Below are positions 3,680 to 56,529 of a DNA stretch of 64,000 nucleotides, piece after piece. The notes beneath the pieces were generated by a model that saw only the letters and a list, made by a program, of their open reading frames with translations, had not been told where the DNA came from and ran no database searches. The stretch spans positions 4,088-68,087 of the forward strand of contig JAQUMH010000002.1 of the NCBI GenBank assembly GCA_028718185.1. Reading direction: 5' to 3'. The translations under genes were made by a program, and so were the position numbers. Position 1 is the first letter of the stretch. Every line of letters begins with the position of its first letter. The DNA comes from Elusimicrobiota bacterium. Its GTDB lineage: Bacteria; Elusimicrobiota; UBA8919.

Positions 3680-3751
3680 CCAGTAATAATCTATATTTTA
3701 ACTTCAACAACAACCTCTATTCTTAACCTTTAGTTTTGTGACCGGCTATTT

Positions 3752-19264: not shown

Positions 19265-19520
19265 ATATAATCCAGTCTGTTACAAGTTAGGCAAAGCTTC
19301 GCTTTGCAGCTACAAACCAATTGATATTGTAGCCGCAGAGCGTTAGCTCTGCTAAATCATTGAAATCCTTATACTCGAGTTAACGCCGACCAAGGTCGGC
19401 AACTACATCATCATTGTAGTGGCAGAGCTTGCTCTGCCTGCATCTTTAATATTCTTACAAATATTTTAAATTTTGTCCCGCTCCAGTTCCGCGCCTGCCT
19501 GCCTGCCGGCAGGTTCCTTA
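19265..19520. repeat. cluster of at least five distinct REP-like hairpin modules in the trpS / M50-protease spacer
   Basis: gcaaagcttcgctttgc (19291-19307); attgtagccgcagagcgttagctctgc (19326-19352); gccgaccaaggtcggcaactaca (19385-19407); cattgtagtggcagagcttgctctgcc (19411-19438); cctgcctgcctgccggcagg (19494-19513). Several modules recur elsewhere in the window. Confidence 0.7.
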
Positions 19521-38510: not shown

Positions 38511-38746
38511 ATTCTTTACATCCAGTTTAATAATATCTGTTTTAAAATAATTATAAATATTTTAAGAACTTTGTCAAGTATTTTCCTTATTTAGCAAATT
38601 TTTATGTGCAATTATTAACACTATTTGCCAACTACTAGTTGATTATATTATTTTATGGTTACATTCTTAAATAATTTGTCAAGAGGTTATTTGTATATAT
38701 TGTTGTGCAATTATCGATATAATTAATTAATAAATATTTATTTATT

Positions 38747-38868
38747 ATCCCGATTTTTATTTATAGAATTTGTTATCGGGATTGTGTTCTCGGTCGTTTC
38801 AGCAGAGCCGACCTCCGAGCACTAACCCGATTTTTATTTATGGAATTTGTTATCGGAATTGTGTTTCC
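38747..38868. promoter_or_regulatory. two 41-bp direct repeats, each followed by a GC-rich hairpin, in the 730-bp AT-rich leader of the surface-protein operon
   Basis: DR1 (38747-38788) cccgatttttatttatagaatttgttatcgggattgtgtt; DR2 (38824-38865) cccgatttttatttatggaatttgttatcggaattgtgtt. Each is followed by a GC-rich palindrome (ctcggtcg...cgacctccgag; ccgagcatagactcgg). Upstream, tttgtcaag and tgcaattat motifs each recur. Confidence 0.5.
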
Positions 38869-39244
38869 CCTGATACTACGGGATCATGTTCTCATCCGGG
38901 GCAGCAGCTCCGGATTCCGAGCATAGACTCGGTCGATGCAATTGCTCCGGACCATGTGTGTTAATTTTACTAAACTGCAATTATTCTGTCAATGACCTAA
39001 TGCCACTTTTTTATGACTTTTTTCCACTATATGAAATTAATCGGTTCTGCATATTCAAATCCATTATAAAATAAAACAAACAATCATCCTCAACTATTAA
39101 CATACTTAATTAGACGAACAACTTGCAAAAACTCTGCACAATATATTTTCTCTCGACAAGTCTCGGAATTATTTTTTAGCTTTCAGAAAAGGGGACAGAA
39201 AAAGAGGCCACTTATTTAGAAGAAATACTACTTTTTAAGGATTT

Positions 39245-42680: not shown

Positions 42681-42787
42681 TTTAATATACGCGAAACTGA
42701 CCTGCCTACCGGCAGGTAGGCGCTAAATGTTTTACGCCTGTTTTGCGCTCCTCTTTACCTCTTTGTTATCCACTAAGCTCCTAATCG

Positions 42788-42910
42788 AAGAGCGAAGAAG
42801 TTGTTGAGCAGAACTTCACGGAGTTCCGCTTAAAACATTCAGCGGAACGAGTGAGAGTGCCCCGACGTAACGTCGGGGACAACGGTTCTGTGAGACAAGC
42901 TCCCGAACGG
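42788..42910. repeat. about 130-bp conserved structured element, copy 2, upstream of the pilT paralog
   Basis: See copy 1. The variable hairpin ccccgacgtaacgtcgggg sits at 42860-42878. Confidence 0.6.
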
Positions 42911-43975: not shown

Positions 43976-44004
43976 TTATCCTCCTGTATTTTATCTATAT
44001 GAAC

Positions 44005-44230
44005 AAATTAGGCACGCCAAGGGCGTGCTACTACAAACATTGATATTCTTATTCATCAAGATAGATTCCCACTTTCGTGGGAATGACACGCCATGATAGA
44101 TTGTCATTCCCGAGTGTCTCAATCGGGAATCCACAACATCGAAATTCTTATGCATCAAGTTATGCCCGCCACTGAACCGTTGGCGGGCAACGACAAAAAC
44201 ATTGTAGTGGCAGAGCTTTGCAACTATATT
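44005..44230. repeat. mosaic of at least five palindromic repeat modules in the pilT / DUF2851 spacer
   Basis: ggcacgccaagggcgtgctactaca (44010-44034); catcaagatagattcccactttcgtgggaatgaca (44054-44088); tgtcattcccgagtgtctcaatcgggaat (44102-44130); gcccgccactgaaccgttggcgggc (44163-44187, reverse complement of the hairpin in the 3589-3679 MITE); cattgtagtggcagagctttgc (44200-44221). Confidence 0.7.
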
Positions 44231-45766
44231 TTACTGCGGCAATAGTTCGCTCATCGACATATTAAAGATTGACTGAAAACTGCAATTAGTACATATTCCT
44301 TTCTTTATGTCGCAAAAATCTTTAAATATTTGTAAAAGTCCCTGTTGAAAACGCTCGCCCCGTCCCGTAATATCTCCAAAACCTATTTTCCACGAAGTAA
44401 GCCGTGCCGTCCGGTTAGTTGCTATTATAGGTTGTTTTAACCACCACTGATAAATAATTTTACCATCTTTTAATGTCTGAATTTTTGCAATCGCCAAAGG
44501 TAAAAATACATTTATAAGTATCAGCAGATTTCTTTCTTCTCCGATTAAAGCAACAGGTTTTAAAAACTTTTTTGAATTAAATGTAGTTCTGAAAAACCAA
44601 AAATTAAAAGAATCGGCAGTATCTATTTTAATCTCTTTTAAGAACTCCTTTAACTTCAAGTTACCCGAGATAATCTTATCGTAAAAATCCTGGAATATTT
44701 TATCAAAACCATTATTGATATGTTTAGAAATAACCAGACTCGCAGCAGCTAAACGACGATATGGAAAATTATATGGTCTTATTCCCCTGAATTTCCAGGA
44801 CTCTTTTTTAATTATTTCACCCGGTAAAATCTGCTGTCTCAGGACCTTCCATATTTTCTTTATCTTTAATACATATTTTTCAGCTTCATCATCAAGCTTT
44901 TCCATCTTGTCTATTTCCGGAATAAGACCGCATACTCCATAAAACAGTGCCTGAATTCTAATTGGTTTTTCTTCAAACTTTTCTAATTTAATTACTTTTT
45001 CTATCCGCTCAAGCGGTAATATCTCAGCCAACTTCCTGAAATTTTCCCTGTTCTGACCGTAACCAAGCCCGCCAATAATACCTTTGTAAACTATTTGATT
45101 TATTGATTCGCTTGACATTCTTCTTTTAAGCTCTTCACTTTTAAGTTTTATCCTTTCATCCCCGGCAATGCCAATTATATGTTCCAATAATGAATATTTT
45201 CTAAAAGAGAATGCAGCACATTTGCCGGCACGAACTTTGCTTGAATAAGGATAATTTTCAACATCAAAATCGCTATTTATGATTTCCAAATCATCATTTA
45301 CATAATCAATCAATTCAAGAGAGGGAACTGCGCCTTTATTTTGAGTAAGTGTCTTTGATAATTTACTGCTTTGCCATAAAAAGACATGCAGGATAACATT
45401 ATTAAAATTCTTATTTTTATAATGATTATGCTTTTTCCAGTATAAGGAATAAATATCAACCTCAATGTCACCTGTTATCTCCTGACCATCGATATTTATT
45501 TTAGCGTTCTTAAAATCAGGTCCCTCATCAAAATTCCACTCGCCCGGCGAGACTATAACAATATTTTTGCCGGCGATTGTTTTCAAACCTCTTCTTTCAA
45601 TCTTTTGGTCAAACCATATCATTTTTACAAGTTTTTCAGTAACCGGTTGTTTGTCCTTATTATATAATTTTTCAGGTTCACGAATAGACAAGGATTCGTA
45701 TAATTTCTTATATTTATTTGAGAAATCCTGAGGATTATGATATTTTACTTCATCAATATACTTCAT
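44231..45766 (-). CDS. DUF2851-like hypothetical protein
   Basis: 511 aa, soluble. The N-terminal segment EKLVKMIWFDQKI resembles the DUF2851 N-terminal motif. No catalytic motif was recognised. Confidence 0.3.
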   Translation of the reverse strand: MKYIDEVKYHNPQDFSNKYKKLYESLSIREPEKLYNKDKQPVTEKLVKMIWFDQKIERRGLKTIAGKNIVIVSPGEWNFDEGPDFKNAKINIDGQEITGDIEVDIYSLYWKKHNHYKNKNFNNVILHVFLWQSSKLSKTLTQNKGAVPSLELIDYVNDDLEIINSDFDVENYPYSSKVRAGKCAAFSFRKYSLLEHIIGIAGDERIKLKSEELKRRMSSESINQIVYKGIIGGLGYGQNRENFRKLAEILPLERIEKVIKLEKFEEKPIRIQALFYGVCGLIPEIDKMEKLDDEAEKYVLKIKKIWKVLRQQILPGEIIKKESWKFRGIRPYNFPYRRLAAASLVISKHINNGFDKIFQDFYDKIISGNLKLKEFLKEIKIDTADSFNFWFFRTTFNSKKFLKPVALIGEERNLLILINVFLPLAIAKIQTLKDGKIIYQWWLKQPIIATNRTARLTSWKIGFGDITGRGERFQQGLLQIFKDFCDIKKGICTNCSFQSIFNMSMSELLPQ

Positions 45767-45769
45767 ATA

Positions 45770-45865
45770 AACGCTGATTGCCGCTGATGATTAACCGAAC
45801 GCTGATGACCGCTGATTCCGGTAACGCTGATTAACACTGATTCTGATTAAACAAACGCTGATTAA
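45770..45865. promoter_or_regulatory. irregular array of about 8 direct CGCTGAT heptamers abutting the start codon of the DUF2851 gene
   Basis: cgctgat occurs at 45772, 45782, 45799, 45810, 45825 and 45856, with degenerate copies at 45835 and 45843. The array starts 5 nt upstream of the ATG (reverse complement at 45764-45766). Confidence 0.5.
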
Positions 45866-46020
45866 TGCAGATAAAACAACCCGATTCTTAAGTTTACCTT
45901 CCCTATATTGAGCGAGGAAGAAATTTCTGAAGAGCCTGAATTTGCGACCTATACCCAACAGGAGCAAATGTTAGAGCGACCTCAAGGGAGCGTCTCGAAG
46001 AAATTTGCTTCCGAGCGAAT

Positions 46021-46617
46021 CTATTTTTTTACTTTAGGCTTTGGTTTCTCAGCTGGTTTATCATTTGGCTTGTCATTTGGTTTTTCAACATAAACCTTTC
46101 TCATTATATCACCGATTTGTATTTTATGAACAACATCAAGTCCTTCTATAACCTGCCCAAAAACAGTATATTGACCATCTAAAAACGACTGTGGACCAAG
46201 ACAGATATAGAATTGACATCCGGCAGAATCAGGAGATTGCGCTCTTGCCATCGCTACAGTTCCGTCAAGATGTTTCCTTTTGTTAAACTCTGCTTTTATC
46301 TTATAACCCGGGTCACCGGTACCATCACCTTTTGGACACCCGCCCTGAATTACAAATCCCGGAACAACCCTGTGGAATTTTAAACCATCGTAAAACTTTG
46401 CATTAGCAAGCTTTTTAAAGTTTGCAACAGTGTTTGGTGCATCTTGTTCGTAAAATTCAAATTTTATTACCCCTTTATCCGTTTTAATTACAGCAATTTC
46501 TTTCATCTGCTTTTTCTCCTTTCCACAAAGATTATTAAAAACCAAACCTGTAAAACTAAAAATCATCAAACCTATTTTAAACTTTTTCCACATTCCATTC
46601 TTCACTATCTGATTCAT
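46021..46617 (-). CDS. secreted cyclophilin-type peptidyl-prolyl cis-trans isomerase with a Lys/Pro-rich C-terminal tail
   Basis: 198 aa with a signal peptide. Cyclophilin motifs [15 protein letters not shown] and [10 protein letters not shown]-terminal tail [20 protein letters not shown]. Confidence 0.85.
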
Positions 46618-47093
46618 AATTCCTCCTCATTTTTAATAAACTCGACCAATTCATCAAGCCCAAAAAATACTTCAATTTTATAATCCGCTAAAAACATATT
46701 GTCTGATTTCTGTTTAACTGTCTCGTAATCGATTTTTGCTTTTTCTCTTAATTCGTCGCGATTGTCTTTACAGTCGTGATTATACACATAAAACAAATAT
46801 CGTTTTTTTTCATCATGATACAATAGAAATCTTTCCCAGTAGAAAAGTAACCCACAATATGGACAAACGACTACATTCAGCAACCCGTTTAACATCATCT
46901 CTTTTAAATCGGGGTCAGTAGTAACGTTTATGGAATCCCATAAATCCCATTCGAATTCCTTTCCACAGGAACATTCAACATTTTGCTTATTGCTGTATGA
47001 CATATATGCGGAATTATATAAAAAAAATATTAAAAAGTAAAATAATAAAGTTCCCCGCAGCAAACTGCGGGGTATCAAATTGCCACCCCGCAC
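46614..47093 (-). CDS. CpXC domain protein
   Basis: 159 aa. CSCGKEF...VVVCPYCG gives two CxxC pairs with the CpXC spacing. Confidence 0.55.
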
Positions 47094-47191
47094 AGTTTTG
47101 TCGTAGACAAAACTAGACGTGGGGGTTCTCCTTTCCTTATCCCCGTCAAGTGAAACTTGACGGGGTATTTGCTGAAGGAGAATAAAAAAAT

Positions 47192-50100
47192 TTATTCTAT
47201 AAGCCGTTTAAAATAATCTTTTATTATTGTTTCATATTTTTGCGGATATTTTTGTCTGAGTGATTCAATTATTGATTCCCTGAATTCTTTTGGCGGCTTA
47301 TATTCGTCGATTGAAGGTATTTTTACGAAACCTTCCCTGAACCCCGTATAACCGCCTTCTTTATTACCTCTATTCCCGCGTGTTCTAAATTTACCACCCA
47401 TCCCCATTGAACCTTTGCCCCCCATACTACTCGCCTGTCCCATTTGACTTAAAGCGCCTTCTAACCCCTCTTTACCACTTAACAAATCATTGAGCGCTTT
47501 TTTTTCAAAATCAACTGCTGACGGGTCATTGGCGTTTGAAAGTTCATCACTAGCCGAACCCATCGCTTCCTGGGACGATAAAATCTTTTTGGCAGCATCT
47601 GACGGTATGGAAAGCGTCTTGCTTAATATTCCAAGGACTTTTTTGTGCAGTAATTGTGCCTGTTTTTGATTTAATTTTTGTGTTTTTGACAGTTGATTAT
47701 GCTTTTCTAAATCGTTTTCTGTAAAAATACTTGTTTTTGGCGGTGCAAATTTCTTCAATTCATTAAGAATCTCCTGTTCAATAGTTTTGCTTGATAAAAC
47801 ATATTCAGCAGATTTTTTAATATTTACATTTTTGGATATATTTTCAAGTTCCGCTATTATTGTTATTAATAATTCATTTGACTTTTCAATTTTTTCATCG
47901 GTAAATTCCTTTAAAACAATTCCCATCTGGGTTTCAGGCTGGACATAAAGATTAAAAACAGACGGATGTGTTGTTGTGCTTTTTTCAATAATTGTTTTTG
48001 AATCGTTGAGTCTGGACATTGCCAATTTCTGTTTTTCTACAAGTTTTTTAAGCAATTCTTTTTGCAATGACAATATCTTCTTTGCCCGTTGCATGTCCAA
48101 TTCCTGAGTACTATTCAAAATCTTCCGCTGTTCTTCTACTATCTTGTCCAGGTCATTAAGCGATTCTTCTGTTTCCTTTTGAAGTTTCTGCTGTGCACTG
48201 CTTGTTGTTGAATTTGAAGAATTTTCCATTGTATTAAGGATATCGGATATTTGCTTGCTGAGTTTTTCAGCAAGCTCTATCGCTTTATCAATATTACCGG
48301 ATTGAAGAGACCACTTCATTTCATCTGCTGCCGATCTCATTTCAGTAAGATCTATTTTTTTCACATTCTCATCGTTTGCAAAATCTTCCGGTAATTTTTG
48401 CGGCATTTCTGAAACTTTTTTTGATAATTCTTCCATCAGCTTGGAAAGTTTTTCATTTGCTTCCTGAAGTTTTTTCATCTTTTCCGGATCTGAAAAATTT
48501 TTCATATCTTTAAGATTTTGTTCTATATCTGACGAAGTATCCGCCATATCTCTTACAGTGGAAAGCATATCTTCCATTTTTTGTTTTTTAGCAATATCTT
48601 CTGAAAATACACCCAGTCTTTTAAGTTCTTCTATTATTTCATCCTGTACCCGTTCCGCATTATCATATTGTTTATTAGAAAGCGAATCCTCAGCTTCGTT
48701 CATTTTCTGTTCCCCGATTGTCTTTGCCGCTTCAAGTAAATTTTTATACTCTGAATATGCATTATAATCAGTTAACGGATCGTTTGCCATTTTTTCCACT
48801 GTCTTACTGAATTCATCTGTTGCTTTATTCATTAACTCCTGTGCATTTTTCTGCATATTAGCAGCATTTTCAATATCACGTTTAGCAAGTGATGTTCTGC
48901 TCTGAAGCTGTCTGGATAATATTTCCTGCAATTTCCTATTGAAATCAGATATTTCATCTTCTATAATTTTGTGTTCCATTTCATATGACATAACCTCAAT
49001 ACTATATGTTTTTGAATTTCCGGTTAAATGAGCAGGATAAATATTATTATCTGCAACTTCAAGACGATATTGGATTACATCGCCCGGTTTCAACCCCAAA
49101 TCAGCTACTGATATTTCATAATCATCTAATATTTTCTGTGTAGGTTTTATAAATGATTTTATTTTCACCTGTTTTTTAAGCGTTAAATAGTCTATATTGA
49201 TTTCTGATATCCCGAAATCATCTTCTGCGGAATAGATAATTTTTAATTTTTCATTTTCCGAAACTATAATATCGCAGGCAGGAGCAACTATTTCAATAAC
49301 AGGCGGACTGTTTTTAGTTACGCTAACCTTGTACTTCACGGGTTGCCTGTAGATATCCCCGTCAATAGAAACTGCTTCTATCCAGTATTCAGTTTGATTT
49401 TGTATTACAAATTGGGAAGTAATTAGATTTTTAGAAATATCCATTTTATTTTTTTCATTCATATCGGTTATCAAAAATGCTTCTTTGGCTTTTTTATTTG
49501 TCTGTGCAGTGATTTTAACCGTAGTACCTACCGGCGCTTCTATATCGCTTTCTTCAACAATTTTGTCCGGTAATCCTATGTATGAAGGATATATATATTC
49601 AAGTTTTATATCAGCGATTGTAAACGGCGAAGTTATTTTCACATCATACTTATGTGATTTATTGTCCAATACTACGACATAATATTCTGTATTATCTGTT
49701 ATTTTTTCAATAGCCTCCGCATATTCGCCTTTACCTGTTTTTTTCATTTTCTTTTTATGCCATTCACTGTTAGCTTCTCTAAAATAAAGATATGGCGTTG
49801 ATTTGTCAGGTTTAACAACTGCACGAATATTCACATCACTACCAAGATTAACTGAAATATCTCCTGGCAAAACTGCAATTTCCATCGCCGAAAGAAAAGG
49901 TATTAAATATCTTTTTAATTGAAGTGAATTGAAAAATAAAGCAAAATTCACCAGGAAAATTAAAAATACAATGATAATATTTTTCAATGGTTTGAAATCT
50001 GTGAATTTTTTTAATAAATCCTTAGAAATTTTTGATGATGTGATTCTTACGAATTCTTCGGCAAATAACGATGATGTTTCGGAATATTTATTATTTTTAA

Positions 50101-50413
50101 GTTGAATTGCATTTATCAAGTCATCTTTCAATGTGCTGTTTTTTTTCTGAATCAAAATCGCTATATCTTCATTTGCTGTTTTTAAATAAATTATTTTTAG
50201 TATTATCTTCATAATAAATACTATTGAAAACACAATCATTACCAGCCATAGAGAGACTCTTAATGCATATGACGATAAATTAAAAATATCGGCAAAATAA
50301 TTTATAAACACAATAAAAAACAAGAATATGAAGATTTTTGTAATATTTTCAACAATATACAAAAACATTATCCTCTTCTTTGTCTTTGATATTAAATTAT
50401 TTATATTATCCAT
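47192..50413 (-). CDS. large membrane-anchored coiled-coil protein (DUF4175-like), probable member of a Bat-like operon
   Basis: 1073 aa. About 4 N-terminal TM helices, a beta-rich region, then more than 600 aa of predicted coiled coil rich in E/K/Q/L, and a C-terminal conserved block (YKPPKEFRESIIESLRQKYPQKYETIIKDYFKRL). Confidence 0.4.
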   Translation of the reverse strand: MDNINNLISKTKKRIMFLYIVENITKIFIFLFFIVFINYFADIFNLSSYALRVSLWLVMIVFSIVFIMKIILKIIYLKTANEDIAILIQKKNSTLKDDLINAIQLKNNKYSETSSLFAEEFVRITSSKISKDLLKKFTDFKPLKNIIIVFLIFLVNFALFFNSLQLKRYLIPFLSAMEIAVLPGDISVNLGSDVNIRAVVKPDKSTPYLYFREANSEWHKKKMKKTGKGEYAEAIEKITDNTEYYVVVLDNKSHKYDVKITSPFTIADIKLEYIYPSYIGLPDKIVEESDIEAPVGTTVKITAQTNKKAKEAFLITDMNEKNKMDISKNLITSQFVIQNQTEYWIEAVSIDGDIYRQPVKYKVSVTKNSPPVIEIVAPACDIIVSENEKLKIIYSAEDDFGISEINIDYLTLKKQVKIKSFIKPTQKILDDYEISVADLGLKPGDVIQYRLEVADNNIYPAHLTGNSKTYSIEVMSYEMEHKIIEDEISDFNRKLQEILSRQLQSRTSLAKRDIENAANMQKNAQELMNKATDEFSKTVEKMANDPLTDYNAYSEYKNLLEAAKTIGEQKMNEAEDSLSNKQYDNAERVQDEIIEELKRLGVFSEDIAKKQKMEDMLSTVRDMADTSSDIEQNLKDMKNFSDPEKMKKLQEANEKLSKLMEELSKKVSEMPQKLPEDFANDENVKKIDLTEMRSAADEMKWSLQSGNIDKAIELAEKLSKQISDILNTMENSSNSTTSSAQQKLQKETEESLNDLDKIVEEQRKILNSTQELDMQRAKKILSLQKELLKKLVEKQKLAMSRLNDSKTIIEKSTTTHPSVFNLYVQPETQMGIVLKEFTDEKIEKSNELLITIIAELENISKNVNIKKSAEYVLSSKTIEQEILNELKKFAPPKTSIFTENDLEKHNQLSKTQKLNQKQAQLLHKKVLGILSKTLSIPSDAAKKILSSQEAMGSASDELSNANDPSAVDFEKKALNDLLSGKEGLEGALSQMGQASSMGGKGSMGMGGKFRTRGNRGNKEGGYTGFREGFVKIPSIDEYKPPKEFRESIIESLRQKYPQKYETIIKDYFKRLIE

Positions 50414-50447
50414 AATTATTAAATATTATGTGGCTATTGAAAAATTT

Positions 50448-52292
50448 CTATTTTATTAATTTCCCCTTTGCTATTTCAAGATACTTTTTTGCTTCACTGT
50501 TATTTGGATTATTTTTAATTACAGTTTGTAATTCAACAATAACTTTCTTCCAATCGCTTTTTTGCCAATATAAAATTGCGAGCTCATAATGTACATCTGT
50601 ATAATTTGGATTTAAACGTAAAGCCTCTTTGAATTCTTTTATTGCAGCATCAGTGTTGTTAACGCGGGGGAACATTCTGCCTAGATTAAAATGAATATCA
50701 GCATTATTTGTCATATCATAAACAAATATAGAATACCCTATTTTATCTACAGGTTCGTATTTTTTTAACCAATCGAAAGCATGAATATCACCTAAATATA
50801 AACCTTGCAGATAAGTGGCACTTACAGCTAAAAGATTCTGTCCCTTTTTATTTACATAATCAACTTCCGGAGAACAGACAGGCGTTAGTATATGCTGTCC
50901 CTTTAGTCCATAGTACATTGAGTCACCTTGTCCAAAATAACACTCTACTAAATTTGCCGGTTTTACTTTATCAATATATTTTTTAAGACCCTTTAAATCC
51001 TGCCCCCAGTCAAGATTTGATTCTACAACATATTTCCACCCGTTCTTTGGTCCGCCGATAAACTCATTAAAATATGCCAGATGATGAGGGAATATACGTA
51101 CAGCCGAATAAAGATACCACAGACAAAGAAATAACACTGCCATTTTTTTTACTATCTTGCTATTTGCATTAACTGCGTTAAAAACATTAACCACACTTCC
51201 TGCCAATACAAAAAGGAACGGGTAAACAGGCAGTATATATCTTAATCCTAATTGTGTTTGACTTTTAGATGCACTAACAAAAAATATAAATGCCGGAAGA
51301 AAAACAAATATTTCATCATTATTCCACAAGCATTTCATATGCTTGTGGCTTATTTTTATCAAACTCCAAAACAACAATATTATAAATGGAACCGGCGTTT
51401 TTATTAAAAATGCTATTATAAAATAATACCACCAACCGCCTGACGAATAGCTTCCCATTAGAAAATTAGGATTTCCTGCTTCTTTTGTTTTAACAATTAT
51501 AGATGAAAAAACGATACTTATTCCTTTAAAATATGAACCTATACCTGTCACCCTGTAGGATAATAAAATAACACAACATGCAATAATAACAGAACTTATC
51601 AATCTCCACCATTTTTTGTTTAATTTATTATATTCAAAACCTGCTAAAAGCATAAATACAGGAACAAGCACTATACTCGAGACTTTTGATACCTGAGCCA
51701 AACCAAAACAAAACCCTACTAATAAAGCATTTAACCAAGTTTGTTTTTTAGAAAATTTCCAGAAAAAATATACACTTAAAAATATAAAAACCGTTACCCC
51801 AAAATCCGTTGTTGCAATTCCAGAATGCGATATAATGTCAGCTGAGAAAGAATAAAGAAATAATGTCAATAACCCCGCCTTCACCCCATATAACCGGCTT
51901 GAAAATTTGAAAACAAAAAAACCCAGCAAAAGAGCCAGAATAAATATCGGTATTCTGCCAAGAAAAAGTATTTTATCAGCACTTGTTGTATTTTCATATA
52001 GGAACTTTTTTCCGTAAGCAAATAGTTCTCCGGCATTGTCTTTTAAATTTTCCGGAGGAAGAGGCGGAAGTTTTAATTTAAGCGGTAATAGAAAACTTGC
52101 AGATAACATTCTCAAAAAAGGCGGATTATTCGGTGCAAAACTAAAATCCCCTGTTTTTAAATTATAATACCCTACAGCTAAATAATGCGGTTCGTCATAA
52201 ACCGGGCATTTCGTCCATGGACCAAATGCAACCTGGAGTCCAAAAACAATAAAAAGAAACATAATAATCAGCAATTCAATCTTTCTATTCAT
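50448..52292 (-). CDS. GT-C fold membrane glycosyltransferase (PMT_2 / ArnT-like, GT83/GT39-type) fused to C-terminal TPR repeats
   Basis: 614 aa. DEPHY motif in the first periplasmic loop, followed by a PPF.. segment. About 11 TM helices. The C-terminal about 110 aa form TPRs (NLGRMF...AILYWQKSDWKKVIVELQTVIKNNPNN) homologous to the TPR tails of the three downstream DUF2723 genes. Confidence 0.55.
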   Translation of the reverse strand: MNRKIELLIIMFLFIVFGLQVAFGPWTKCPVYDEPHYLAVGYYNLKTGDFSFAPNNPPFLRMLSASFLLPLKLKLPPLPPENLKDNAGELFAYGKKFLYENTTSADKILFLGRIPIFILALLLGFFVFKFSSRLYGVKAGLLTLFLYSFSADIISHSGIATTDFGVTVFIFLSVYFFWKFSKKQTWLNALLVGFCFGLAQVSKVSSIVLVPVFMLLAGFEYNKLNKKWWRLISSVIIACCVILLSYRVTGIGSYFKGISIVFSSIIVKTKEAGNPNFLMGSYSSGGWWYYFIIAFLIKTPVPFIILLFWSLIKISHKHMKCLWNNDEIFVFLPAFIFFVSASKSQTQLGLRYILPVYPFLFVLAGSVVNVFNAVNANSKIVKKMAVLFLCLWYLYSAVRIFPHHLAYFNEFIGGPKNGWKYVVESNLDWGQDLKGLKKYIDKVKPANLVECYFGQGDSMYYGLKGQHILTPVCSPEVDYVNKKGQNLLAVSATYLQGLYLGDIHAFDWLKKYEPVDKIGYSIFVYDMTNNADIHFNLGRMFPRVNNTDAAIKEFKEALRLNPNYTDVHYELAILYWQKSDWKKVIVELQTVIKNNPNNSEAKKYLEIAKGKLIK

Positions 52293-52300
52293 ATATTAAG

Positions 52301-52396
52301 AAACACGAATTATCACGAATGTTATGACACATCACGAATTTATCACGAATATTCGTATCCTATTCGTGATTTTTTGGTTATTCGTGTTCATTCGTG
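52301..52396. promoter_or_regulatory. palindromic array of heptamers (4 x CACGAAT then 4 x ATTCGTG) abutting the start codon of the PMT_2-like gene
   Basis: cacgaat occurs at 52304, 52314, 52332 and 52344; attcgt(a/g) at 52351, 52362, 52379 and 52389. The symmetry centre is acgaatattcgt (52345-52356). The array begins 9 nt upstream of the ATG (reverse complement at 52290-52292). Confidence 0.5.
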
Positions 52397-54568
52397 TATT
52401 TGAGCGTTTTTCCTTGCCATGTAAAGATATTTCTGGGCATCGATATTGTTTGGATTGATTTTTAGAGTTTTTTCAAGTTCTTCAATAACTTTATCCCATT
52501 TATTAAGACGCCAATATGCCACTGCCATATTATAGTGTGCATCCATATAATCGGATTTAATTTTGACTGCTTCGTTATATTCGGAAATAGCTTCATTAGT
52601 TTTGTTTTGTTTTTCATAAATAGTCCCAAGATTATTATAAACAATTGCCCAATCGTAAAGAATTGAATCAACCACTTCCGGAAAAGACTTATATTCAATT
52701 GCATCATTGTACATTTTTGTATAATATTTTATTGATTCCTTATAGTAATACTCGGTTTTTTCTAAATCATTTTTTTGATAATAAAGCCAGCCGAGATTAT
52801 AATATATAGAAGGATAATCTTCTTTTATTGATATTGCTTCATTAAATTTTATTATTGCATCTTTTTCTTTATCTTCCCTCATAAAGAAAAGACCTGCTTT
52901 GAACAAAGAATCGGCATATTGTGAGATAATTTTCTGTGTAAAAAAATCCGGATATGCAGATGCATTGAGAACGCTTCTCTTTATGTAAAATTCCACAAAA
53001 TTAACCGGCTTATCAAATACTGTTTTTATATCTTTTACCTGAAAAACCAGCCCATAAGGATAAACATAATATTTCTGACCAAGCATTTCGTAATCTTCAA
53101 CATCACTTGTAAAACAGACATTCCTGTTTTTATTGAATATATAAAACTGGGAAAATGTATCCGGATTATTTAATGAAAAAACATCCGTATTTTTATATTT
53201 TTTTAACGTTTCCTGATACCATTTACTTCCCGAAAGTCCTTTTGCTATAACTGTAATATCATTACGTTTATTTTCCACATACTGTAAATACCATTCTGAA
53301 AAAACCTGAATATCTTCTCTTGATATAATTATTGAATTGGCCGGAAGAGACCTGAAAACGTTCCTTGCAAAATCGTATGCAGTAAAATTATTACGCATAT
53401 TTTGTTTACCTATATTTAATGTAAATAACCATATTGGAATTATTAAAAAAATAATAGAAACCGTTTTTAACTTTCGGGACACAAAATATATCCCGAAACC
53501 AAACCACAAAGCAAGCATTAAATCAGAAATTAAATAGTGCGGTTCCACAATTGCAAGTGCATACGGGTTAGGCGGCATTTTAGCAATTGTAATGAAAAAA
53601 GGTCCTGTGATAATGTAAATCATTAATGTTGATATCAAAAAATCCTTTTTTGCTTTATACAAATATAAAAATCCAAAAAATACTATCGGAATACCAATAA
53701 TGGTAAATAGATTAAAAGTTCTTTCTAAATAGACCTTCATTCCCGAGTAAAAAACATCACTGATTTTATATCTTGTGGAGATTAAATCCAATGTTTTCCC
53801 GTGCGTTTTACGGGTAATTGTATCCATTACTGTCTGTATATTATCGGGTTTATTCCAATTTAGATATGGCTGAGTTTTTGACCTTGCAGGCAAAAATGCA
53901 AATATAGAAAAACCAAGAAAAAACAGAATTACATAAGTAATTATATTTTTAATTGAAAAAAGGTTTTGTATTTTACTCTTTACAACCCAATATAAAATCC
54001 CGGGAACAATTAAAATTATCTCAATACGGTTGCCTGTCGCTAGCCCTAACAGGAAAGAAACGAGTAACAAGTAACGAGTAGTGAGTAATAAATAAATTAT
54101 CAATACAATAAAAAAGATGTTTAGAGTATACATTTCCGCGACTACTGAAACAGACCATAAGGTCTTGGAAAAAGCAAAAATAAGAACAGGTAAGCAGGCG
54201 GATAATAAGAAAGCGGGATTGTGCGATTGTGGGATTGTGGAATAGAGAGAGTGCGGGATTGCGGGATTGTGGGATTGCGGGATAGAAAAAGAACAGGTCA
54301 ACTGCTTTATAATCAAATATATGATACTACAAGTTAAAGCGCCAAAAACAGCACTCATGCAGTTTACACGATAGGCTATATTTCCGAATGGAATTAAAAT
54401 TGTAAAGATTTTTCCAAGAACCACATATAACGGATACCCGGGCGGGTGAGCTATTCCATACTTGTAACAAACAGATACCATCTCTCCTGCATCACGATAG
54501 ATTGCAACCGACGGGAACAATGTATAAACAAACACCCAAAATGTTAATAAAAACAAGAAATAAATCAT
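52388..54568 (-). CDS. DUF2723 (TMEM260-like GT-C fold putative protein O-glycosyl/mannosyl-transferase) fused to C-terminal TPR repeats; paralog 1
   Basis: 726 aa. N-terminal YRDAGEMVSVCYKYGIAHPPGYPLY, a DUF2723 hallmark shared with paralogs 2 and 3. At least 10 TM helices. An in-frame IPQSHNPA-type repeat encoded by 9-bp gggattgtg/gcgggattg repeats (54211-54285). C-terminal TPRs. Confidence 0.55.
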   Translation of the reverse strand: MIYFLFLLTFWVFVYTLFPSVAIYRDAGEMVSVCYKYGIAHPPGYPLYVVLGKIFTILIPFGNIAYRVNCMSAVFGALTCSIIYLIIKQLTCSFSIPQSHNPAIPHSLYSTIPQSHNPAFLLSACLPVLIFAFSKTLWSVSVVAEMYTLNIFFIVLIIYLLLTTRYLLLVSFLLGLATGNRIEIILIVPGILYWVVKSKIQNLFSIKNIITYVILFFLGFSIFAFLPARSKTQPYLNWNKPDNIQTVMDTITRKTHGKTLDLISTRYKISDVFYSGMKVYLERTFNLFTIIGIPIVFFGFLYLYKAKKDFLISTLMIYIITGPFFITIAKMPPNPYALAIVEPHYLISDLMLALWFGFGIYFVSRKLKTVSIIFLIIPIWLFTLNIGKQNMRNNFTAYDFARNVFRSLPANSIIISREDIQVFSEWYLQYVENKRNDITVIAKGLSGSKWYQETLKKYKNTDVFSLNNPDTFSQFYIFNKNRNVCFTSDVEDYEMLGQKYYVYPYGLVFQVKDIKTVFDKPVNFVEFYIKRSVLNASAYPDFFTQKIISQYADSLFKAGLFFMREDKEKDAIIKFNEAISIKEDYPSIYYNLGWLYYQKNDLEKTEYYYKESIKYYTKMYNDAIEYKSFPEVVDSILYDWAIVYNNLGTIYEKQNKTNEAISEYNEAVKIKSDYMDAHYNMAVAYWRLNKWDKVIEELEKTLKINPNNIDAQKYLYMARKNAQIHE

Positions 54569-56529
54569 AATCTTTTTTTAGCTATTTCCAGATAATTTTT
54601 CACATCAGCTCTTTCCGGATTTATCTGTAAAACTTTTTCAAATTCTTCCACCACACCCTGCCAGTTTTTCATATCCCAGTATAAAGCTGCTAAACTATAA
54701 TGTGCATCTTCATAATTTGGGAATATTTCAATGGCATTTTTAAACATTAATATCGCCGTATTTTTTTGATTAGTTTCAATATAATACTTTGATAATGTAA
54801 GATAATAAAAATAAGCTAAAATAGCATCACGAAACCTCGAATACTTTCCTCTTAATGCATAAATATAAGAAAAATCATGTTGAGGCATTTCCTTGTTAAG
54901 TGAATATAAAAGCCCTGCATTATAAAATTTCATATCACTGAAATAATCAGGATTTTCAGCTAAATAATAAGTGCTTTTCCCGCTATCTAAAATCATTTTT
55001 CTTTCAATCGGCAACCTAACCATCCGCCTTTCACTACCCTTAATCCAATAATACCTATCACCATATATGTTGGGAAAAACACTTGCATTACAGTCAAAAA
55101 CATCTACTGTCGGCCTTCTTTTTTCAACTATTTTCTGATATGCAAGAATAAATACAGATTCATCTGCTTTATCCAGAAAAAGCAATGAGTTATTTGAAAC
55201 AGTTTTCAAAATATTTTTGCCGAGGTCAAACGGGAAGAAATTGTATCTTAAATTGTTTCTTTGAAAGTTTGCCGAAAACTGGAAAACCAAAAATCCTGTT
55301 ATAAAAATATAAGCCACGAACGTGCAAACCGCTTTATGGTAAACCCAGGTTGTTTTATCGACTATATACTTTACCCCCATACCAATCCATATTGCGAATA
55401 TTATTACTGAAGGTATGTGAAAGGGTTCGAGCAGGTCTCTCGTAGAATCATCTACAGGTTTATTAGCCAAAAACATAAAAATTGGTCCAGAAAAAAAGAA
55501 GATTAAAAATAGAAACCAAAAATATTTCTTTTCTTTTTTATAATTATAAATAAAACCGGTAATTCCTAAAATAGATCCAAAGACAGTAAATGAATCTACG
55601 ATATTTTTAATATATTCCCAAAGCTGCTGCATCAGCAGAGGCAGGGGTCTAAATAAATATCCCCCTTTCTCTTCAATATGCATTACACCGCCGTATCCTA
55701 TCCTGAAAACTACTCTTAAAAAATTTATAAACTTACCGGGATTGTCCCAATTGGCTATCGGATTTTGGCGGGAACGAATAAACAAATATAAATATAGTGA
55801 AAAACCAAGTAAAAAAAATAGCGTCCAATGTCCGATGTCCCTGCCCCGTGGCAAGGCGGGCGATGTCCAATGTCTTAAAGGTTTATTTTGAACTGAGTTT
55901 GCTCCGCTCAAAACAGGATACTTAGGACTTTGGAGTATTAAATATAACATACCGGGAAATAAAAGTACTAGTGTATGGTGGTTACAAAGCCCTAAACCGA
56001 ATAAGAAAGAAATGAGTAACGAGTAACGATTAACGAGTAATAAATAAATAATCAATATGACAAAAAACGCGTTTAATGTGTATATCCCGCCTTTTGTCTG
56101 GACACATTGAGACCAAAATATATTAGAAAAAGCTAAGAAAAAGGCGGATAAGAAAGCGGGAAAGCGGGAAAGTGGGAAAGCGGGATTGTGCGATTGAGAG
56201 ATAGCGGAATCGTGGGATTGTGCGATTGTGGGATTGTGGGATAGAGGGTCAGCGGACGAGCTGGTAAGATGCTTCATTAACAAATACATTATACCGCAGG
56301 TTAATGCTCCGAAAAAGACGCTCATGCAATTTACACGATATGCTATGTTTCCATAAGGGATTAAAATTGTAAATATCTTCCCAAGCAACACATACAACGG
56401 ATATCCCGGCGGGTGACTAATACCCAAAACGTACGAAGAAGTTATAAGTTCGCCACTATCGCCTGTACATACAGTAGGTGAAGAAGTGAATAGTAATATT
56501 CCTAAGTTTATCAAAAATACTATTATCAT
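54565..56529 (-). CDS. DUF2723 + TPR membrane glycosyltransferase-like protein; paralog 2
   Basis: 654 aa. CTGDSGELITSSYVLGISHPPGYPLYVLLGKIF. VNTR region 56155-56250 (gcgggaaag/gggattgtg units encoding SHNPTIAQSHDSAISQSHNPAF). C-terminal TPRs. Confidence 0.55.
   Translation of the reverse strand: MIIVFLINLGILLFTSSPTVCTGDSGELITSSYVLGISHPPGYPLYVLLGKIFTILIPYGNIAYRVNCMSVFFGALTCGIMYLLMKHLTSSSADPLSHNPTIAQSHDSAISQSHNPAFPLSRFPAFLSAFFLAFSNIFWSQCVQTKGGIYTLNAFFVILIIYLLLVNRYSLLISFLFGLGLCNHHTLVLLFPGMLYLILQSPKYPVLSGANSVQNKPLRHWTSPALPRGRDIGHWTLFFLLGFSLYLYLFIRSRQNPIANWDNPGKFINFLRVVFRIGYGGVMHIEEKGGYLFRPLPLLMQQLWEYIKNIVDSFTVFGSILGITGFIYNYKKEKKYFWFLFLIFFFSGPIFMFLANKPVDDSTRDLLEPFHIPSVIIFAIWIGMGVKYIVDKTTWVYHKAVCTFVAYIFITGFLVFQFSANFQRNNLRYNFFPFDLGKNILKTVSNNSLLFLDKADESVFILAYQKIVEKRRPTVDVFDCNASVFPNIYGDRYYWIKGSERRMVRLPIERKMILDSGKSTYYLAENPDYFSDMKFYNAGLLYSLNKEMPQHDFSYIYALRGKYSRFRDAILAYFYYLTLSKYYIETNQKNTAILMFKNAIEIFPNYEDAHYSLAALYWDMKNWQGVVEEFEKVLQINPERADVKNYLEIAKKRL

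What the first reader, a model, noticed from the sequence alone, without database searches (positions are those of the whole stretch)
52301..52396. Second heptamer array, this one palindromic (4 x CACGAAT then 4 x ATTCGTG), 9 nt upstream of the first glycosyltransferase gene
The architecture matches the CGCTGAT array: 7-mers at irregular 10-18-bp spacing, placed just upstream of a start codon. The motif is different, and the array has a perfect symmetry centre (acgaatattcgt). This is the layout expected for cooperative binding of a dimeric regulator across a long operator, or for a large cruciform-capable element sitting between paralogous genes. It sits at the head of the GT-C/TPR array, between the PMT_2-like gene and DUF2723 paralog 1.
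Basis: seen in the sequence. Interest (0 to 1): 0.5.

Follow-up and report, generated by a model that had tools for sequence, protein, structure and literature searches.

The report
Orphan hairpin of a nuclease cassette
The palindromic heptamer array is not a private regulatory site: it is a gene-less copy of the inverted-repeat ends of a tiny, apparently undescribed mobile cassette, found in many bacterial phyla and some archaeal genome bins, that normally carries one small nuclease gene, and here it has landed between two glycosyltransferase genes.

Summary
The array is real. There are 4 exact CACGAAT, then ATTCGTa and 3 exact ATTCGTG, with mirror-symmetric spacing; 7 of the window's 12 exact hits lie in 93 bp. 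All genes here are on the minus strand. The array overlaps the stop codon of the last TMEM260/DUF2723-like paralog and ends 11 nt before the ATG of the PMT_2/GT39 gene. In three syntenic relatives these two genes overlap by ATGA, so the array is a roughly 105-nt lineage-specific insertion. In full-length copies the two arms tightly bracket a ~125-aa GxxExxY (PF13366, PD-(D/E)XK) gene. Of 68 such genes picked by protein alone, 55 carry such arms, and the heptamer varies by lineage within the pattern CRCNRAT. The window's CGCTGAT array fits that pattern. Other Elusimicrobia carry CACAGAT hairpins, one with the same 10-19-10 spacing inserted in frame in the GT39 ortholog. I read the array as a gene-less, MITE/REP-like remnant, not an operator. 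How the family moves is unknown. I found no description of it in Rfam or the searchable literature.

The parts
52293..52401 (-). Inserted segment of about 105 nt relative to syntenic relatives: the whole palindromic element plus short A/T-rich flanks. The exact ends are uncertain by a few nt.
   Evidence: Junction alignment of the window against L001, L324 and L326, where the two genes overlap by ATGA with no spacer.
52351..52396 (-). Arm that is 5' on the transcribed (minus) strand. It reads CACGAAT gaa CACGAAT aaccaaaaaat CACGAAT agga TACGAAT. On the + strand the units start at 52390, 52380, 52362 and 52351, the last being imperfect.
   Evidence: The units fit the family heptamer CRCNRAT, and the CACGAATGAACACGAAT part equals the family consensus.
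52304..52350 (-). Arm that is 3' on the transcribed strand. It reads ATTCGTG ataa ATTCGTG atgtgtcataac ATTCGTG ata ATTCGTG. On the + strand this is CACGAAT at 52304, 52314, 52333 and 52344.
52345..52356 (.). Perfect 12-nt palindrome ACGAATATTCGT at the centre. The two arms abut with no loop, so no ORF is enclosed.
   Evidence: Loop-less or nearly loop-less solo hairpins of the same kind occur in L020 and L106.
52303..52397 (-). Predicted interrupted hairpin in the operon transcript: three 7-9-bp helices plus a small inner helix, separated by internal loops.
   Evidence: strand folding RNA -32.3 kcal/mol, z = -4.2, 0 of 200 shuffles as stable. DNA -20.4 kcal/mol, z = -4.2.
52388..52390 (-). TGA stop codon of the upstream TMEM260/DUF2723-like+TPR gene, supplied by the element (CAC GAA TGA). 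The last residues are ...ARKNAQIHE*, against ...ARKNAGL* in the closest relative.
52290..52292 (-). ATG of the PMT_2/GT39+TPR gene, 11 nt after the last heptamer. No Shine-Dalgarno-like sequence lies in between. ATGAATAG is conserved with the relative, where this ATG overlaps the upstream stop.
52388..54568 (-). Upstream gene: the third TMEM260-like (DUF2723) + TPR glycosyltransferase paralog.
   Evidence: Pfam PF11028, E = 3e-33, plus TPR families.
50448..52292 (-). Downstream gene: PMT_2 (GT39-like) + TPR glycosyltransferase.
   Evidence: Pfam PF13231. 100% identical to an NCBI protein named 'MAG: glycosyltransferase family 39 protein [Elusimicrobia bacterium]'.
45772..45862 (+). Sister array: CGCTGAT x6 plus CACTGAT, all in one orientation, at spacings of 10, 18, 10, 15, 10..., directly upstream of the DUF2851 ATG (45766, minus strand). 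It has the same heptamer class (CRCNRAT) but only one arm type.
   Evidence: A CCGCTGAT-type arm flanks a GxxExxY gene in L182, and CACTGAT-type arms do in L191.

Best explanation
The array is an ORF-less ('solo') copy of the terminal inverted repeats of a widespread small cassette.

The full-length cassette is about 450 bp:
- A left arm of three 10-nt units, consensus TTAAC-CRCNRAT-GRA-CRCNRAT-RRA-CRCNRAT.
- A ~125-aa GxxExxY gene (PF13366/TIGR04256, PD-(D/E)XK nuclease fold).
- The reverse-complement arm.

The heptamer differs between lineages: CACGAAT, CGCGAAT, CACGGAT, CACAGAT, CGCAGAT or CACTGAT. Copies without the gene, with the arms adjacent or enclosing a short loop, far outnumber full copies. 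This parallels MITEs relative to insertion sequences and REPs/REPINs relative to RAYT genes.

In this Elusimicrobia lineage one such hairpin inserted at the ATGA stop/start overlap between the last TMEM260-like gene and the GT39 gene (shown by comparison with relatives). The element now supplies the upstream gene's stop codon and separates the two formerly overlapping genes by 95 nt.

Inferred, not shown:
- The element is transcribed with the operon and folds into an interrupted hairpin of about -32 kcal/mol.
- It is mainly a selfish or neutral insertion. Its side effect is to break translational coupling and perhaps to create an RNA processing or stability site.
- At the family level, the heptamers are recognition sites for the cassette's own nuclease acting on DNA.
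For: 1. Insertion. In L001 (64% aa identity), L324/L325 and L326 (about 41% identity, same operon order BatA-DUF4159-GATase1_like-TMEM260 x3-PMT_2-DUF4175-...-CpXC-cyclophilin) the two genes overlap by ATGA. Only the window has a spacer.

2. Recurrence. The stereotyped architecture is ...aaC-CACGAAT nnn CACGAAT nnn CACGAAT ... ATTCGTG nnn ATTCGTG nnn ATTCGTG-Gtt.... I estimate roughly 40 chance hits for the whole collection, and about 1 for the canonical 9-10-nt period.

3. No common neighbouring host gene. The elements are mostly intergenic and occur in all gene orientations.

4. In 7 of those loci the arms bracket a GxxExxY/PDDEXK_3 gene.

5. Independent sample of GxxExxY genes chosen by protein alone:
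- 55 of 68 have at least 3 heptamers upstream and at least 3 reverse complements downstream, mostly at a 10/10-nt period.
- In 34 of 47 the start ATG lies inside the left arm, and the stop usually lies 0-7 nt from the right arm.
- Heptamer class follows the protein's nearest neighbour in 38 of 47, reached by 0 of 2000 permutations.

6. Solo hairpins dominate: 40 with an arm gap of 60 nt or less, 22 with a gap of 61-300, and 4 with an ORF-sized gap.

7. The same sub-architecture exists in the same phylum. L326 has a CACAGAT 4+4 hairpin with 10-19-10 spacing, inserted in frame in the GT39 ortholog (+ about 44 aa). L327 and L328 have intergenic CACAGAT hairpins. L024 also shows 10-19-10 spacing.

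8. Arm mismatches show no sense-strand G.U excess (54 against 59) and sit in the spacers. This points to sequence recognition on DNA rather than selection for RNA pairing.

9. The catalytic E...PD...(D/E)xK residues are conserved.
Against: - The window copy is atypical. It has 4+4 units with 10/19/11 spacing instead of 3+3 at 10 nt. It also lacks the canonical outer TTAAC/GTTAA ends: it has atA-CACGAAT ... ATTCGTG-Ttt, an A/T outer pair seen in only 5 of 65 paired elements.
- No GxxExxY gene lies in the 64-kb window. The rest of the source genome could not be read.
- Mobility rests on presence or absence among distant relatives. It does not rest on recent polymorphism. No target-site duplication could be defined.
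- No biochemical function of GxxExxY proteins is known. Structure prediction failed (pLDDT 40) and there is no PDB relative by sequence.
- Many viral-contig hits are single arms in front of genes with no GxxExxY nearby, so the arms may have a role independent of the nuclease.
- Seven bases is short, so independent origin cannot be formally excluded.
Confidence: 0.8

Rival explanations
1. Exapted RNA element. Whatever its origin, the hairpin now works in the operon mRNA as an intercistronic processing site, a 3'-exonuclease barrier or a translational attenuator. It would set the ratio of the TMEM260-like paralogs to the GT39 enzyme. This is compatible with the mobile-element origin.
For: - A stable interrupted hairpin, -32.3 kcal/mol, z = -4.2.
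- It sits exactly between a stop and a start inside an operon.
- The downstream start has no Shine-Dalgarno-like sequence and has lost the ATGA coupling seen in relatives.
- REPs in comparable positions are thought to act as RNA elements (PMC3733652).
Against: - It is not conserved at this junction in any relative.
- No U-tract and no terminator-like site.
- Across the family, arm mismatches show no G.U bias on the sense strand (54 against 59), so RNA pairing is not visibly what is selected.
- No expression data are available.
Confidence: 0.25
2. Operator array for a cooperative dimeric or oligomeric DNA-binding regulator of the glycosyltransferase operon. This would resemble heptad arrays bound by ribbon-helix-helix repressors, or direct repeats bound by OmpR/PhoB-type regulators.
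For: - The heptamers are conserved while the spacers are not.
- The 10-11-bp spacing puts paired sites on one face of the helix, and the layout is dyad-symmetric.
Against: - It lies between a stop and a start inside an operon, with no minus-strand promoter-like site there.
- It is absent at the orthologous junction in three relatives that keep the whole operon.
- The same array occurs next to unrelated genes in many phyla and as the ends of a nuclease cassette.
- None of the 18 window ORFs scanned with Pfam, including all those from 44231 to 62148, matched a DNA-binding regulator family.
Confidence: 0.04
3. Recombination-site hairpin of an integron-like cassette system. The palindromes would be attC-like sites, and the small ORFs (GxxExxY, toxins) would be cassettes exchanged by a site-specific recombinase.
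For: - Some loci show hairpin-ORF-hairpin strings with small ORFs: L039 has at least 5 elements in 3 kb next to a 3' gene end whose translation I read as RelE/ParE-like (not scanned), and L091 and L189 are similar.
- The size and imperfect-palindrome nature resemble attC sites (from memory).
Against: - In most full copies the two arms lie on either side of the ORF, with the start codon inside the left arm, rather than as one hairpin after it.
- The ends do not match the RYYYAAC/GTTRRRY core sites when inspected by eye.
- No recombinase family recurs next to the elements.
- The elements are scattered singly in operon junctions.
Confidence: 0.05
4. Locally generated low-complexity spacer, from replication slippage or palindrome amplification, with no relation to elements elsewhere.
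For: Short repeated units. Other short-unit arrays exist in this genome's intergenic regions.
Against: - The units are not tandem and the spacers all differ, so no longer unit was duplicated.
- The same heptamer, period and inverted layout occur across phyla.
- The same 10-19-10 layout, with a different heptamer, occurs in another Elusimicrobiota genome.
Confidence: 0.03

Closest known systems
REP / REPIN elements and their RAYT genes ('REPtrons')
   Same: - Short palindromic repeats dispersed mainly in intergenic regions and often close to gene ends.
- They sometimes supply stop codons and sometimes lie inside genes.
- Many solo copies accompany a few copies that flank a single small nuclease-type gene in inverted orientation (PMC3733652, read; PMC3116915, listed).
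   Different: - RAYTs are HUH/Y1 transposases related to IS200/IS605. The gene here is a ~125-aa PD-(D/E)XK-fold GxxExxY protein.
- REPs are 20-40-nt GC-rich imperfect palindromes tagged GTAG or CGTC. Here each arm is a modular set of three 10-nt units with a conserved heptamer CRCNRAT, and the arms encode the start codon of the gene.
- The family is shared across many phyla with near-identical heptamers.
MITEs (miniature inverted-repeat transposable elements)
   Same: Non-coding derivatives that keep only the terminal inverted repeats of a coding element, are 60-300 bp long, and outnumber full copies.
   Different: - No DDE transposase parent and no target-site duplication could be defined.
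- The parent is itself only about 450 bp.
- Only one CACGAAT copy is seen in 64 kb of this genome, so multicopy status in the host is untested.
Rickettsia palindromic elements (RPE)
   Same: Palindromic elements that can insert in frame into protein-coding genes and be translated. L326 carries a CACAGAT-type hairpin in frame inside the GT39 ortholog. RPEs are mentioned in PMC3733652.
   Different: Different sequence, host range and architecture. The window copy is intergenic and only remodels the last four codons of the upstream gene.
Heptad operator arrays of ribbon-helix-helix repressors (for example omega of plasmid pSM19035, WATCACW heptads in direct and inverted orientation); recalled from memory, not tested
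   Same: Arrays of 7-bp units in direct and inverted orientation.
   Different: Those heptads are contiguous (7-bp period), sit at promoters, and are specific to their plasmids. Here the period is 9-11 or 18-19 nt, the site is inside an operon, and the array is a dispersed repeat.
ORF-containing intervening sequences of 23S rRNA genes (Leptospira and others) and other small ORFs bracketed by inverted repeats; recalled from memory
   Same: A small ORF tightly enclosed by inverted repeats and inserted into a transcribed host unit. The window also holds a GIY-YIG ORF bracketed by its own inverted repeats at another junction of the same operon.
   Different: Different protein families and repeats. 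RNase III excision is documented for the IVS, whereas nothing is known here and the G.U test gives no support for RNA-level selection.
Cyanobacterial STRR / tandem heptanucleotide repeats
   Same: Heptamer-based intergenic repeat arrays of unknown function. Heptameric repeat enrichment is noted in PMC4692102 (listed).
   Different: STRRs are strictly tandem with a 7-nt period. Here the heptamers are separated by variable spacers and organised as inverted arms around, or in place of, a gene.

Membership tests
Decamer-repeat inverted arms of GxxExxY (PF13366/TIGR04256) cassettes (unnamed family defined here) | The heptamer fits CRCNRAT, and the same heptamer is used in both arms in inverted orientation. 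| tested here: met
   CACGAAT x4 and ATTCGTG x3 plus ATTCGTa. CACGAAT is the commonest heptamer type around GxxExxY genes.
Decamer-repeat inverted arms of GxxExxY (PF13366/TIGR04256) cassettes (unnamed family defined here) | Three units per arm at a 9-10-nt period. | tested here: inconclusive
   The window has four units per arm, as two pairs (10-11 nt) separated by 18-19 nt. The same 10-19-10 variant occurs in L326 (Elusimicrobiota, CACAGAT) and L024, so it looks like a sub-architecture. It is not the canonical form.
Decamer-repeat inverted arms of GxxExxY (PF13366/TIGR04256) cassettes (unnamed family defined here) | Outer ends TTAAC-...-GTTAA; the inverted repeat extends about 5 nt beyond the outer heptamers. 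| tested here: not met
   The window has caaatA-CACGAAT ... ATTCGTG-Tttctt, with 3 of 5 outer positions complementary. C/G at outer position 1 occurs in 51 of 65 elements and A/T in 5 of 65.
Decamer-repeat inverted arms of GxxExxY (PF13366/TIGR04256) cassettes (unnamed family defined here) | The arms bracket a GxxExxY ORF, or the copy is an ORF-less derivative in a genome that also has full copies. | tested here: inconclusive
   There is no ORF between the arms and no GxxExxY gene in the 64-kb window. ORF-less copies are the majority elsewhere.
Decamer-repeat inverted arms of GxxExxY (PF13366/TIGR04256) cassettes (unnamed family defined here) | Behaves as an insertion: present or absent at orthologous sites. 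| tested here: met
   Absent from the same gene junction in L001, L324/L325 and L326.
Transcription-factor operator | Located at a promoter and conserved at the orthologous regulatory region. | tested here: not met
   It lies inside the operon between a stop and a start. No minus-strand promoter-like site lies in it. It is absent in the syntenic relatives.
Transcription-factor operator | A cognate DNA-binding protein binds the sites. | not testable with these tools
   This needs ChIP, EMSA or a footprint. None of the 18 window ORFs scanned with Pfam, including all those from 44231 to 62148, matched a DNA-binding regulator family.
Intrinsic (Rho-independent) terminator | GC-rich stem followed by a U-tract. 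| tested here: not met
   No terminator-like site was called in 52293-52400. The stem is AT-rich and interrupted and is followed by UUUCUUAAUAU.
REP/REPIN-RAYT | A 20-40-nt palindrome with a GTAG or CGTC tag, and an associated HUH/Y1 RAYT gene. | tested here: not met
   No such tags appear in the units. The associated gene elsewhere is PD-(D/E)XK, not HUH.
MITE | Terminal inverted repeats, no ORF, target-site duplication, multicopy in the genome. | tested here: inconclusive
   Inverted repeats and the lack of an ORF are met. No target-site duplication is recognisable at the window junction or across loci: the outer flanks are complementary rather than direct repeats. Only one CACGAAT copy lies in the window.
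Integron attC site | R''/L''...L'/R' boxes with RYYYAAC and GTTRRRY cores, and a linked IntI integrase. | tested here: not met
   The ends do not match the cores when inspected by eye. No recurrent neighbouring recombinase was found. A formal attC covariance-model search was not run.
Rfam RNA families | A match at gathering score. | tested here: not met
   No hits in the window. Only a tRNA in 18 element-bearing loci.

The most novel reading that the evidence does not exclude
The GxxExxY cassette, about 450 bp (three 10-nt units, a 125-aa PD-(D/E)XK nuclease gene, three inverted units), is an autonomous mobile element. It would be smaller than any known insertion sequence. The nuclease would recognise the heptamer repeats as its own ends. 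Each arm offers ATG (often ATGA) in all three frames, so the cassette can slot into stop/start junctions of operons. Solo hairpins like the one in this window would be its non-autonomous or decayed progeny. It would have spread through many bacterial phyla, some archaea and viral contigs.
Probability: 0.3. Interest if true: 0.85.

Novelty: new variant of a known kind. Interest (0 to 1): 0.6.

Why it matters
For this window, the result removes a false lead. The array is not a regulator-binding operator for the glycosyltransferase genes. It is an insertion that rewrote the upstream gene's last codons and broke a conserved ATGA stop/start overlap.

More broadly, following the heptamer links two things that appear unconnected in Rfam and in the literature I could search:
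- The very large GxxExxY/PDDEXK_3 family of unknown function. It has 8,778 clusters at 50% identity with E <= 0.001, and its function is listed as 'Unknown' in the PD-(D/E)XK survey PMC3424549.
- A repeat family seen in many bacterial phyla and two archaeal bins, made of three 10-nt units per arm.

If the nuclease mobilises these arms, this would be a new and extremely compact class of mobile element. It would also explain the family's paralog expansions and many odd 'heptamer arrays', spurious short ORFs and in-frame insertions in metagenome-assembled genomes.

Tried and rejected
- Exact-protein look-up of the window's GT39 protein and of its 100% match P0001 found no contig on record. The rest of the source genome, a 301-kb contig, could not be read.
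- Rfam at gathering threshold gave nothing in the window and only a tRNA in 18 element-bearing loci.
- The promoter/terminator scan found no minus-strand site in the array.
- Literature searches for the heptamers, for 17-nt arm strings, and for GxxExxY, PDDEXK_3, PF13366 and TIGR04256 found nothing on the repeats. PF13366 is listed with function 'Unknown'.
- The PDB sequence search with a GxxExxY profile gave no hit at E <= 1.
- AlphaFold2 on a 40-sequence alignment (75-100% identity) gave an unusable model, pLDDT 40.3. No fold search was run.
- A search for a common neighbouring host gene around 120 loci found only the GxxExxY cluster and small unrelated clusters.
- No GxxExxY gene was found by tblastn in the window, in the 120 viral loci or in five Elusimicrobia loci.
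- I looked for decayed fifth units inside the 11-12-nt spacers of the window array and found nothing convincing.
- I looked for a target-site duplication. AATA occurs on both sides, but not symmetrically placed, so I did not accept it.
Full report
**1. The observation**

Region 52301-52396 contains CACGAAT at 52304, 52314, 52333 and 52344. It then has ATTCGTA at 52351 and ATTCGTG at 52362, 52380 and 52390. Start-to-start spacing is 10, 19, 11, 7, 11, 18, 10, which is mirror-symmetric. The centre ACGAATATTCGT is a perfect palindrome. Only the heptamers are complementary between the arms; the spacers are not. Seven of the twelve exact occurrences in the 64-kb window lie in these 93 bp, while shuffles give 7.0 +/- 2.5 for the whole window. 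In a 7-mer survey this is the strongest local cluster in the window, and the CGCTGAT array at 45772-45862 is second. The sequence observation is therefore correct, apart from one imperfect unit.

**2. Placement**

All genes in the neighbourhood are on the minus strand. In transcription order, Pfam gives DUF4159, a GATase1_like protein, three TMEM260-like (DUF2723)+TPR paralogs that overlap each other by 4 nt, then the array. After it come a PMT_2/GT39+TPR gene, DUF4175, CpXC, cyclophilin, the CGCTGAT array and DUF2851. The array overlaps the last 9 nt of the third paralog, including its TGA (52388-52390). It ends 11 nt before the ATG (52292) of the GT39 gene.

**3. The array is an insertion**

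The GT39 protein is 100% identical to an NCBI protein from a 'MAG: Elusimicrobia bacterium'. I compared three sets of relatives:
- The closest ortholog, at 64% identity (L001-L003).
- L324/L325, with a GT39 ortholog at 41% identity, named after Elusimicrobia bacterium RIFOXYD2_FULL_34_15.
- L326, at 41% identity, from assembly GCA_040757695.1.

The two more distant ones keep the whole operon. In all three the upstream TPR gene and the GT39 gene overlap by ATGA with no spacer. The window keeps ...GCAAGGAAAAA.GC... on one side and ATGAATAG on the other, with about 105 nt in between. The upstream protein ends ...ARKNAQIHE*, with its stop taken from CACGAATGA, instead of ...ARKNAGL*.

**4. The same array elsewhere**

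They come from Flavobacterium, Chitinophagales, Verrucomicrobia, Planctomycetes, Chloroflexi, Acidobacteria, Nitrosomonas, Halofilum, Cloacimonadota and two archaeal bins, among others. Most show one stereotyped layout...(t)taaC-CACGAAT nn(n) CACGAAT nn(n) CACGAAT, then 1-300 nt, then ATTCGTG nn(n) ATTCGTG nn(n) ATTCGTG-Gtta(a). A minority are unrelated tandem or coding repeats with periods of 7, 8 or 15 nt.

Other properties of this sample:
- The inverted repeat extends about 5 nt beyond the outer heptamers. Complementarity there is 88, 83, 57, 58 and 51%, then falls to 23-31% at the next three positions.
- The elements are mostly intergenic, often within 5-30 nt of gene ends, and occur in all gene orientations: 60 tandem, 29 convergent and 19 divergent.
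- No host gene family recurs beside them.
- Rfam has no family for them.

**5. What the arms belong to**

The only recurrent neighbour was a ~125-aa ORF lying between the arms in L039, L059, L081, L091, L095, L097 and L101. It is PF13366 PDDEXK_3 and TIGR04256 'GxxExxY protein', with E-values down to 1e-44.

To remove the selection bias I fetched 80 GxxExxY loci from metagenomes by protein similarity alone. Of the 68 with complete flanks:
- 63 have at least 2 copies, and 55 at least 3 copies, of a heptamer (one mismatch or fewer) upstream, with the same number of reverse complements downstream. These are almost always at a 10/10-nt period.
- The heptamer differs between lineages: CACGAAT, CGCGAAT, CACGGAT, CACAGAT, CGCAGAT or CACTGAT. 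All fit CRCNRAT.
- Heptamer class follows the nearest protein neighbour in 38 of 47 cases, reached by 0 of 2000 permutations.

The arm consensus is TTAAC-CRCNRAT-GRA-CRCNRAT-RRA-CRCNRAT. The cassette is extremely compact. In 34 of 47 the first in-frame ATG is the AT|G of one of the three units, at offsets 5, 15 or 25. The stop codon usually lies 0-7 nt from the first right-arm heptamer. With a 10-nt period, the three ATGs (often ATGA) fall in three different frames. This explains how the window's upstream ORF is closed within three codons of entering the element.

Solo copies outnumber full ones. In the pattern-selected sample there are 40 with an arm gap of 60 nt or less, 22 with a gap of 61-300 nt, and 4 with an ORF-sized gap. 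The protein family is large: 8,778 clusters at 50% identity with E <= 0.001.

**6. Is the window copy a member?**

Its heptamer, its inverted layout and its behaviour as an insertion fit the family. CACGAATGAACACGAAT equals the arm consensus. It departs in two ways:
- It has 4+4 units arranged as two pairs per arm (10-11 nt), separated by 18-19 nt.
- Its outer ends are A...T rather than C...G, and it lacks TTAAC/GTTAA.

The first oddity recurs in the same phylum. L326 has a CACAGAT hairpin with 10-19-10 spacing, and L024 has CACGAAT at 10-19-10. The L326 copy lies in frame inside the GT39 ortholog itself and adds about 44 residues relative to the window and L324 proteins. L327 and L328 carry intergenic CACAGAT hairpins.

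Elusimicrobia therefore host this repeat class, with different heptamers in different lineages. The window's CGCTGAT/CACTGAT array belongs to the same class, but has one arm type only. CRCNRAT sites cluster at four or more per 120 nt only around these two arrays in the window. No GxxExxY gene lies in the window, and the rest of the genome could not be read.

**7. How it probably works**

Shown: the array is an insertion, it belongs to the repeat class that forms the ends of GxxExxY cassettes, and it provides the upstream stop codon.

Inferred for this copy: it is co-transcribed with the operon and folds into an interrupted hairpin of -32.3 kcal/mol, z = -4.2. It replaces a conserved ATGA overlap with a 95-nt structured spacer, and there is no Shine-Dalgarno-like sequence before the GT39 start. 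Its likeliest effect is a change in coupling or stability, not dedicated regulation. There is no promoter-like or terminator-like signal on the transcribed strand.

For the family I tested RNA-level against DNA-level constraint. Among 47 cassettes, arm-to-arm mismatches that would be G.U on the sense transcript (54) are no commoner than those that would be A.C (59). Mismatches concentrate in the 3-nt spacers, while the heptamers stay intact. This favours sequence-specific recognition of the heptamers on DNA, most simply by the cassette's own nuclease. The E...PD...(D/E)xK residues of that nuclease are conserved.

This inference is untested. Structure prediction failed (pLDDT 40) and there is no solved relative by sequence. 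Many hits there are single arms just upstream of successive genes (L220, L231), with no GxxExxY gene nearby. The arms may therefore have a life independent of the nuclease.

**8. Comparison with known systems**

The closest analogue in logic is the REP/REPIN-RAYT system, in which many solo palindromes accompany a few copies flanking one small nuclease gene. Those repeats also supply stop codons and sometimes lie inside genes (PMC3733652). The protein fold, the modular three-unit arms, the embedded start codon and the cross-phylum sharing of near-identical heptamers all differ.

Other comparisons:
- The family resembles MITEs, but without a DDE parent or a recognisable target duplication.
- The L326 in-frame copy resembles Rickettsia palindromic elements.
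- The operator-like heptad arrays of ribbon-helix-helix repressors, recalled from memory, resemble it only superficially.
- I found no description of the arms or of their link to GxxExxY proteins in Rfam or in the searchable literature. PF13366 is listed with function 'Unknown'. Absence from my searches does not prove that it is undescribed.

**9. Verdict**

The array is real, but it is not a dedicated operator. It is a gene-less member of a widespread, apparently unnamed inverted-repeat family tied to GxxExxY nuclease cassettes, and in this lineage it inserted at an operon gene junction. I rate it a new variant of a known kind (REP/MITE-like). Interest is moderate to high, mainly because of the family it reveals.

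Noticed in passing
window 45772-45862: A CGCTGAT x6 (+ CACTGAT) array, all in one orientation, abuts the ATG of the DUF2851 gene. It fits the same CRCNRAT heptamer class as the GxxExxY-cassette arms, but only one arm type is present. In L326 the homologous cyclophilin-to-DUF2851 spacer holds two ATCTGCG/ATTTGCG units.
   Followed up: partly
window 1008-1072 and 9440-9505: A second kind of palindromic array is built from 8-mers with an 8-nt period: TTATAGGG-type x4, then CYCTAWAA x4. One copy fills the gap between the stop of a polysaccharide deacetylase gene (1074) and the ATG (998) of a tsaD-like gene (identified from its N-terminal translation only). A degenerate copy lies between a GT4 gene and a UDP-glucose pyrophosphorylase gene. 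It may be another solo-hairpin family.
   Followed up: no
window 60809-61353 (ORF 60949-61236, minus strand): A 95-aa GIY-YIG nuclease ORF (PF01541, E = 3e-16) is tightly bracketed by its own inverted repeats (GCAATCTCA...TGAGATTGC) and by GTCATTGCGAGC...GAAGCAATCTC-type hairpins. It is inserted between DUF4159 and the GATase1_like gene. Those two genes overlap in the syntenic loci L324 and L326. This is a second selfish-nuclease cassette in the same operon.
   Followed up: partly
L326 10562-10651: A CACAGAT-type 4+4 hairpin with 10-19-10 spacing is inserted in frame inside the PMT_2/GT39 ortholog of another Elusimicrobiota genome. It adds about 44 residues (…CSHRLTQIKHQDTDKHRYLIRVHHLFYLCSSV…) that are absent from the window and L324 proteins.
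   Followed up: yes
window 12738-12953 and 42681-42910 (minus strand): Two intergenic regions share a conserved element of about 125 nt: TCGGGAGCTTGT.TC.CAGAACCGT, a variable hairpin, then CACTCTCACTCGTTCCGCTGAATGTTTTAAGCGGAACTCCGTGAAGTTCTGCTCAACAAC. The two hairpins have different, each self-complementary, sequences. The elements lie upstream of a GlgE-like gene and a T2SSE (PilT-like) ATPase gene. There is no Rfam match. This is a candidate structured RNA or another dispersed repeat.
   Followed up: partly
L220 (3684, 6138, 6452, 9550) and L231 (2929, 6580, 9784, 10599, 10846), viral contigs: Single three-unit CACGAAT arms recur in one orientation in the short gaps just upstream of successive genes on two IMG/VR contigs. 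In L220 they are followed directly by a Shine-Dalgarno sequence. No GxxExxY gene lies in these loci. The arms may have a role of their own, in translation or regulation, or they may be footprints.
   Followed up: partly
window 54213-54283, 56152-56246, 58432-58462: Runs of 8-nt units (GGGATTGT, GTGGGATT, GAAAGCGG on the + strand) lie inside the 5' parts of all three TMEM260-like paralogs. These are coding repeats near the N-termini, shared by the paralogs.
   Followed up: no
window 38511-39244: A 734-nt gene-free region contains two direct copies of about 77 nt (…GAACACAATCCCGATAACAAATTC.ATAAATAAAAATCGGG…), repeated AATTGCA motifs and two TTGACA-type sequences. It lies upstream of the 1074-aa gene at 35286-38510.
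   Followed up: no
window 3498-3751, 13953-14063, 19265-19520, 42681-42910, 43976-44230, 47094-47191: Many intergenic regions carry short GC-rich hairpin repeats that recur across the window, for example ACCTGCC(N4)GGCAGGT, CGCCACTGAACCGTTGGCGGGC, GCAGAGC.{4}GCTCTGC and GTCATTCCCACGAAAGTGGGAATC. The genome is rich in REP-like palindromes of several families.
   Followed up: no
window 20398-32976: A single 4192-aa ORF lies on the minus strand. It was not examined.
   Followed up: no
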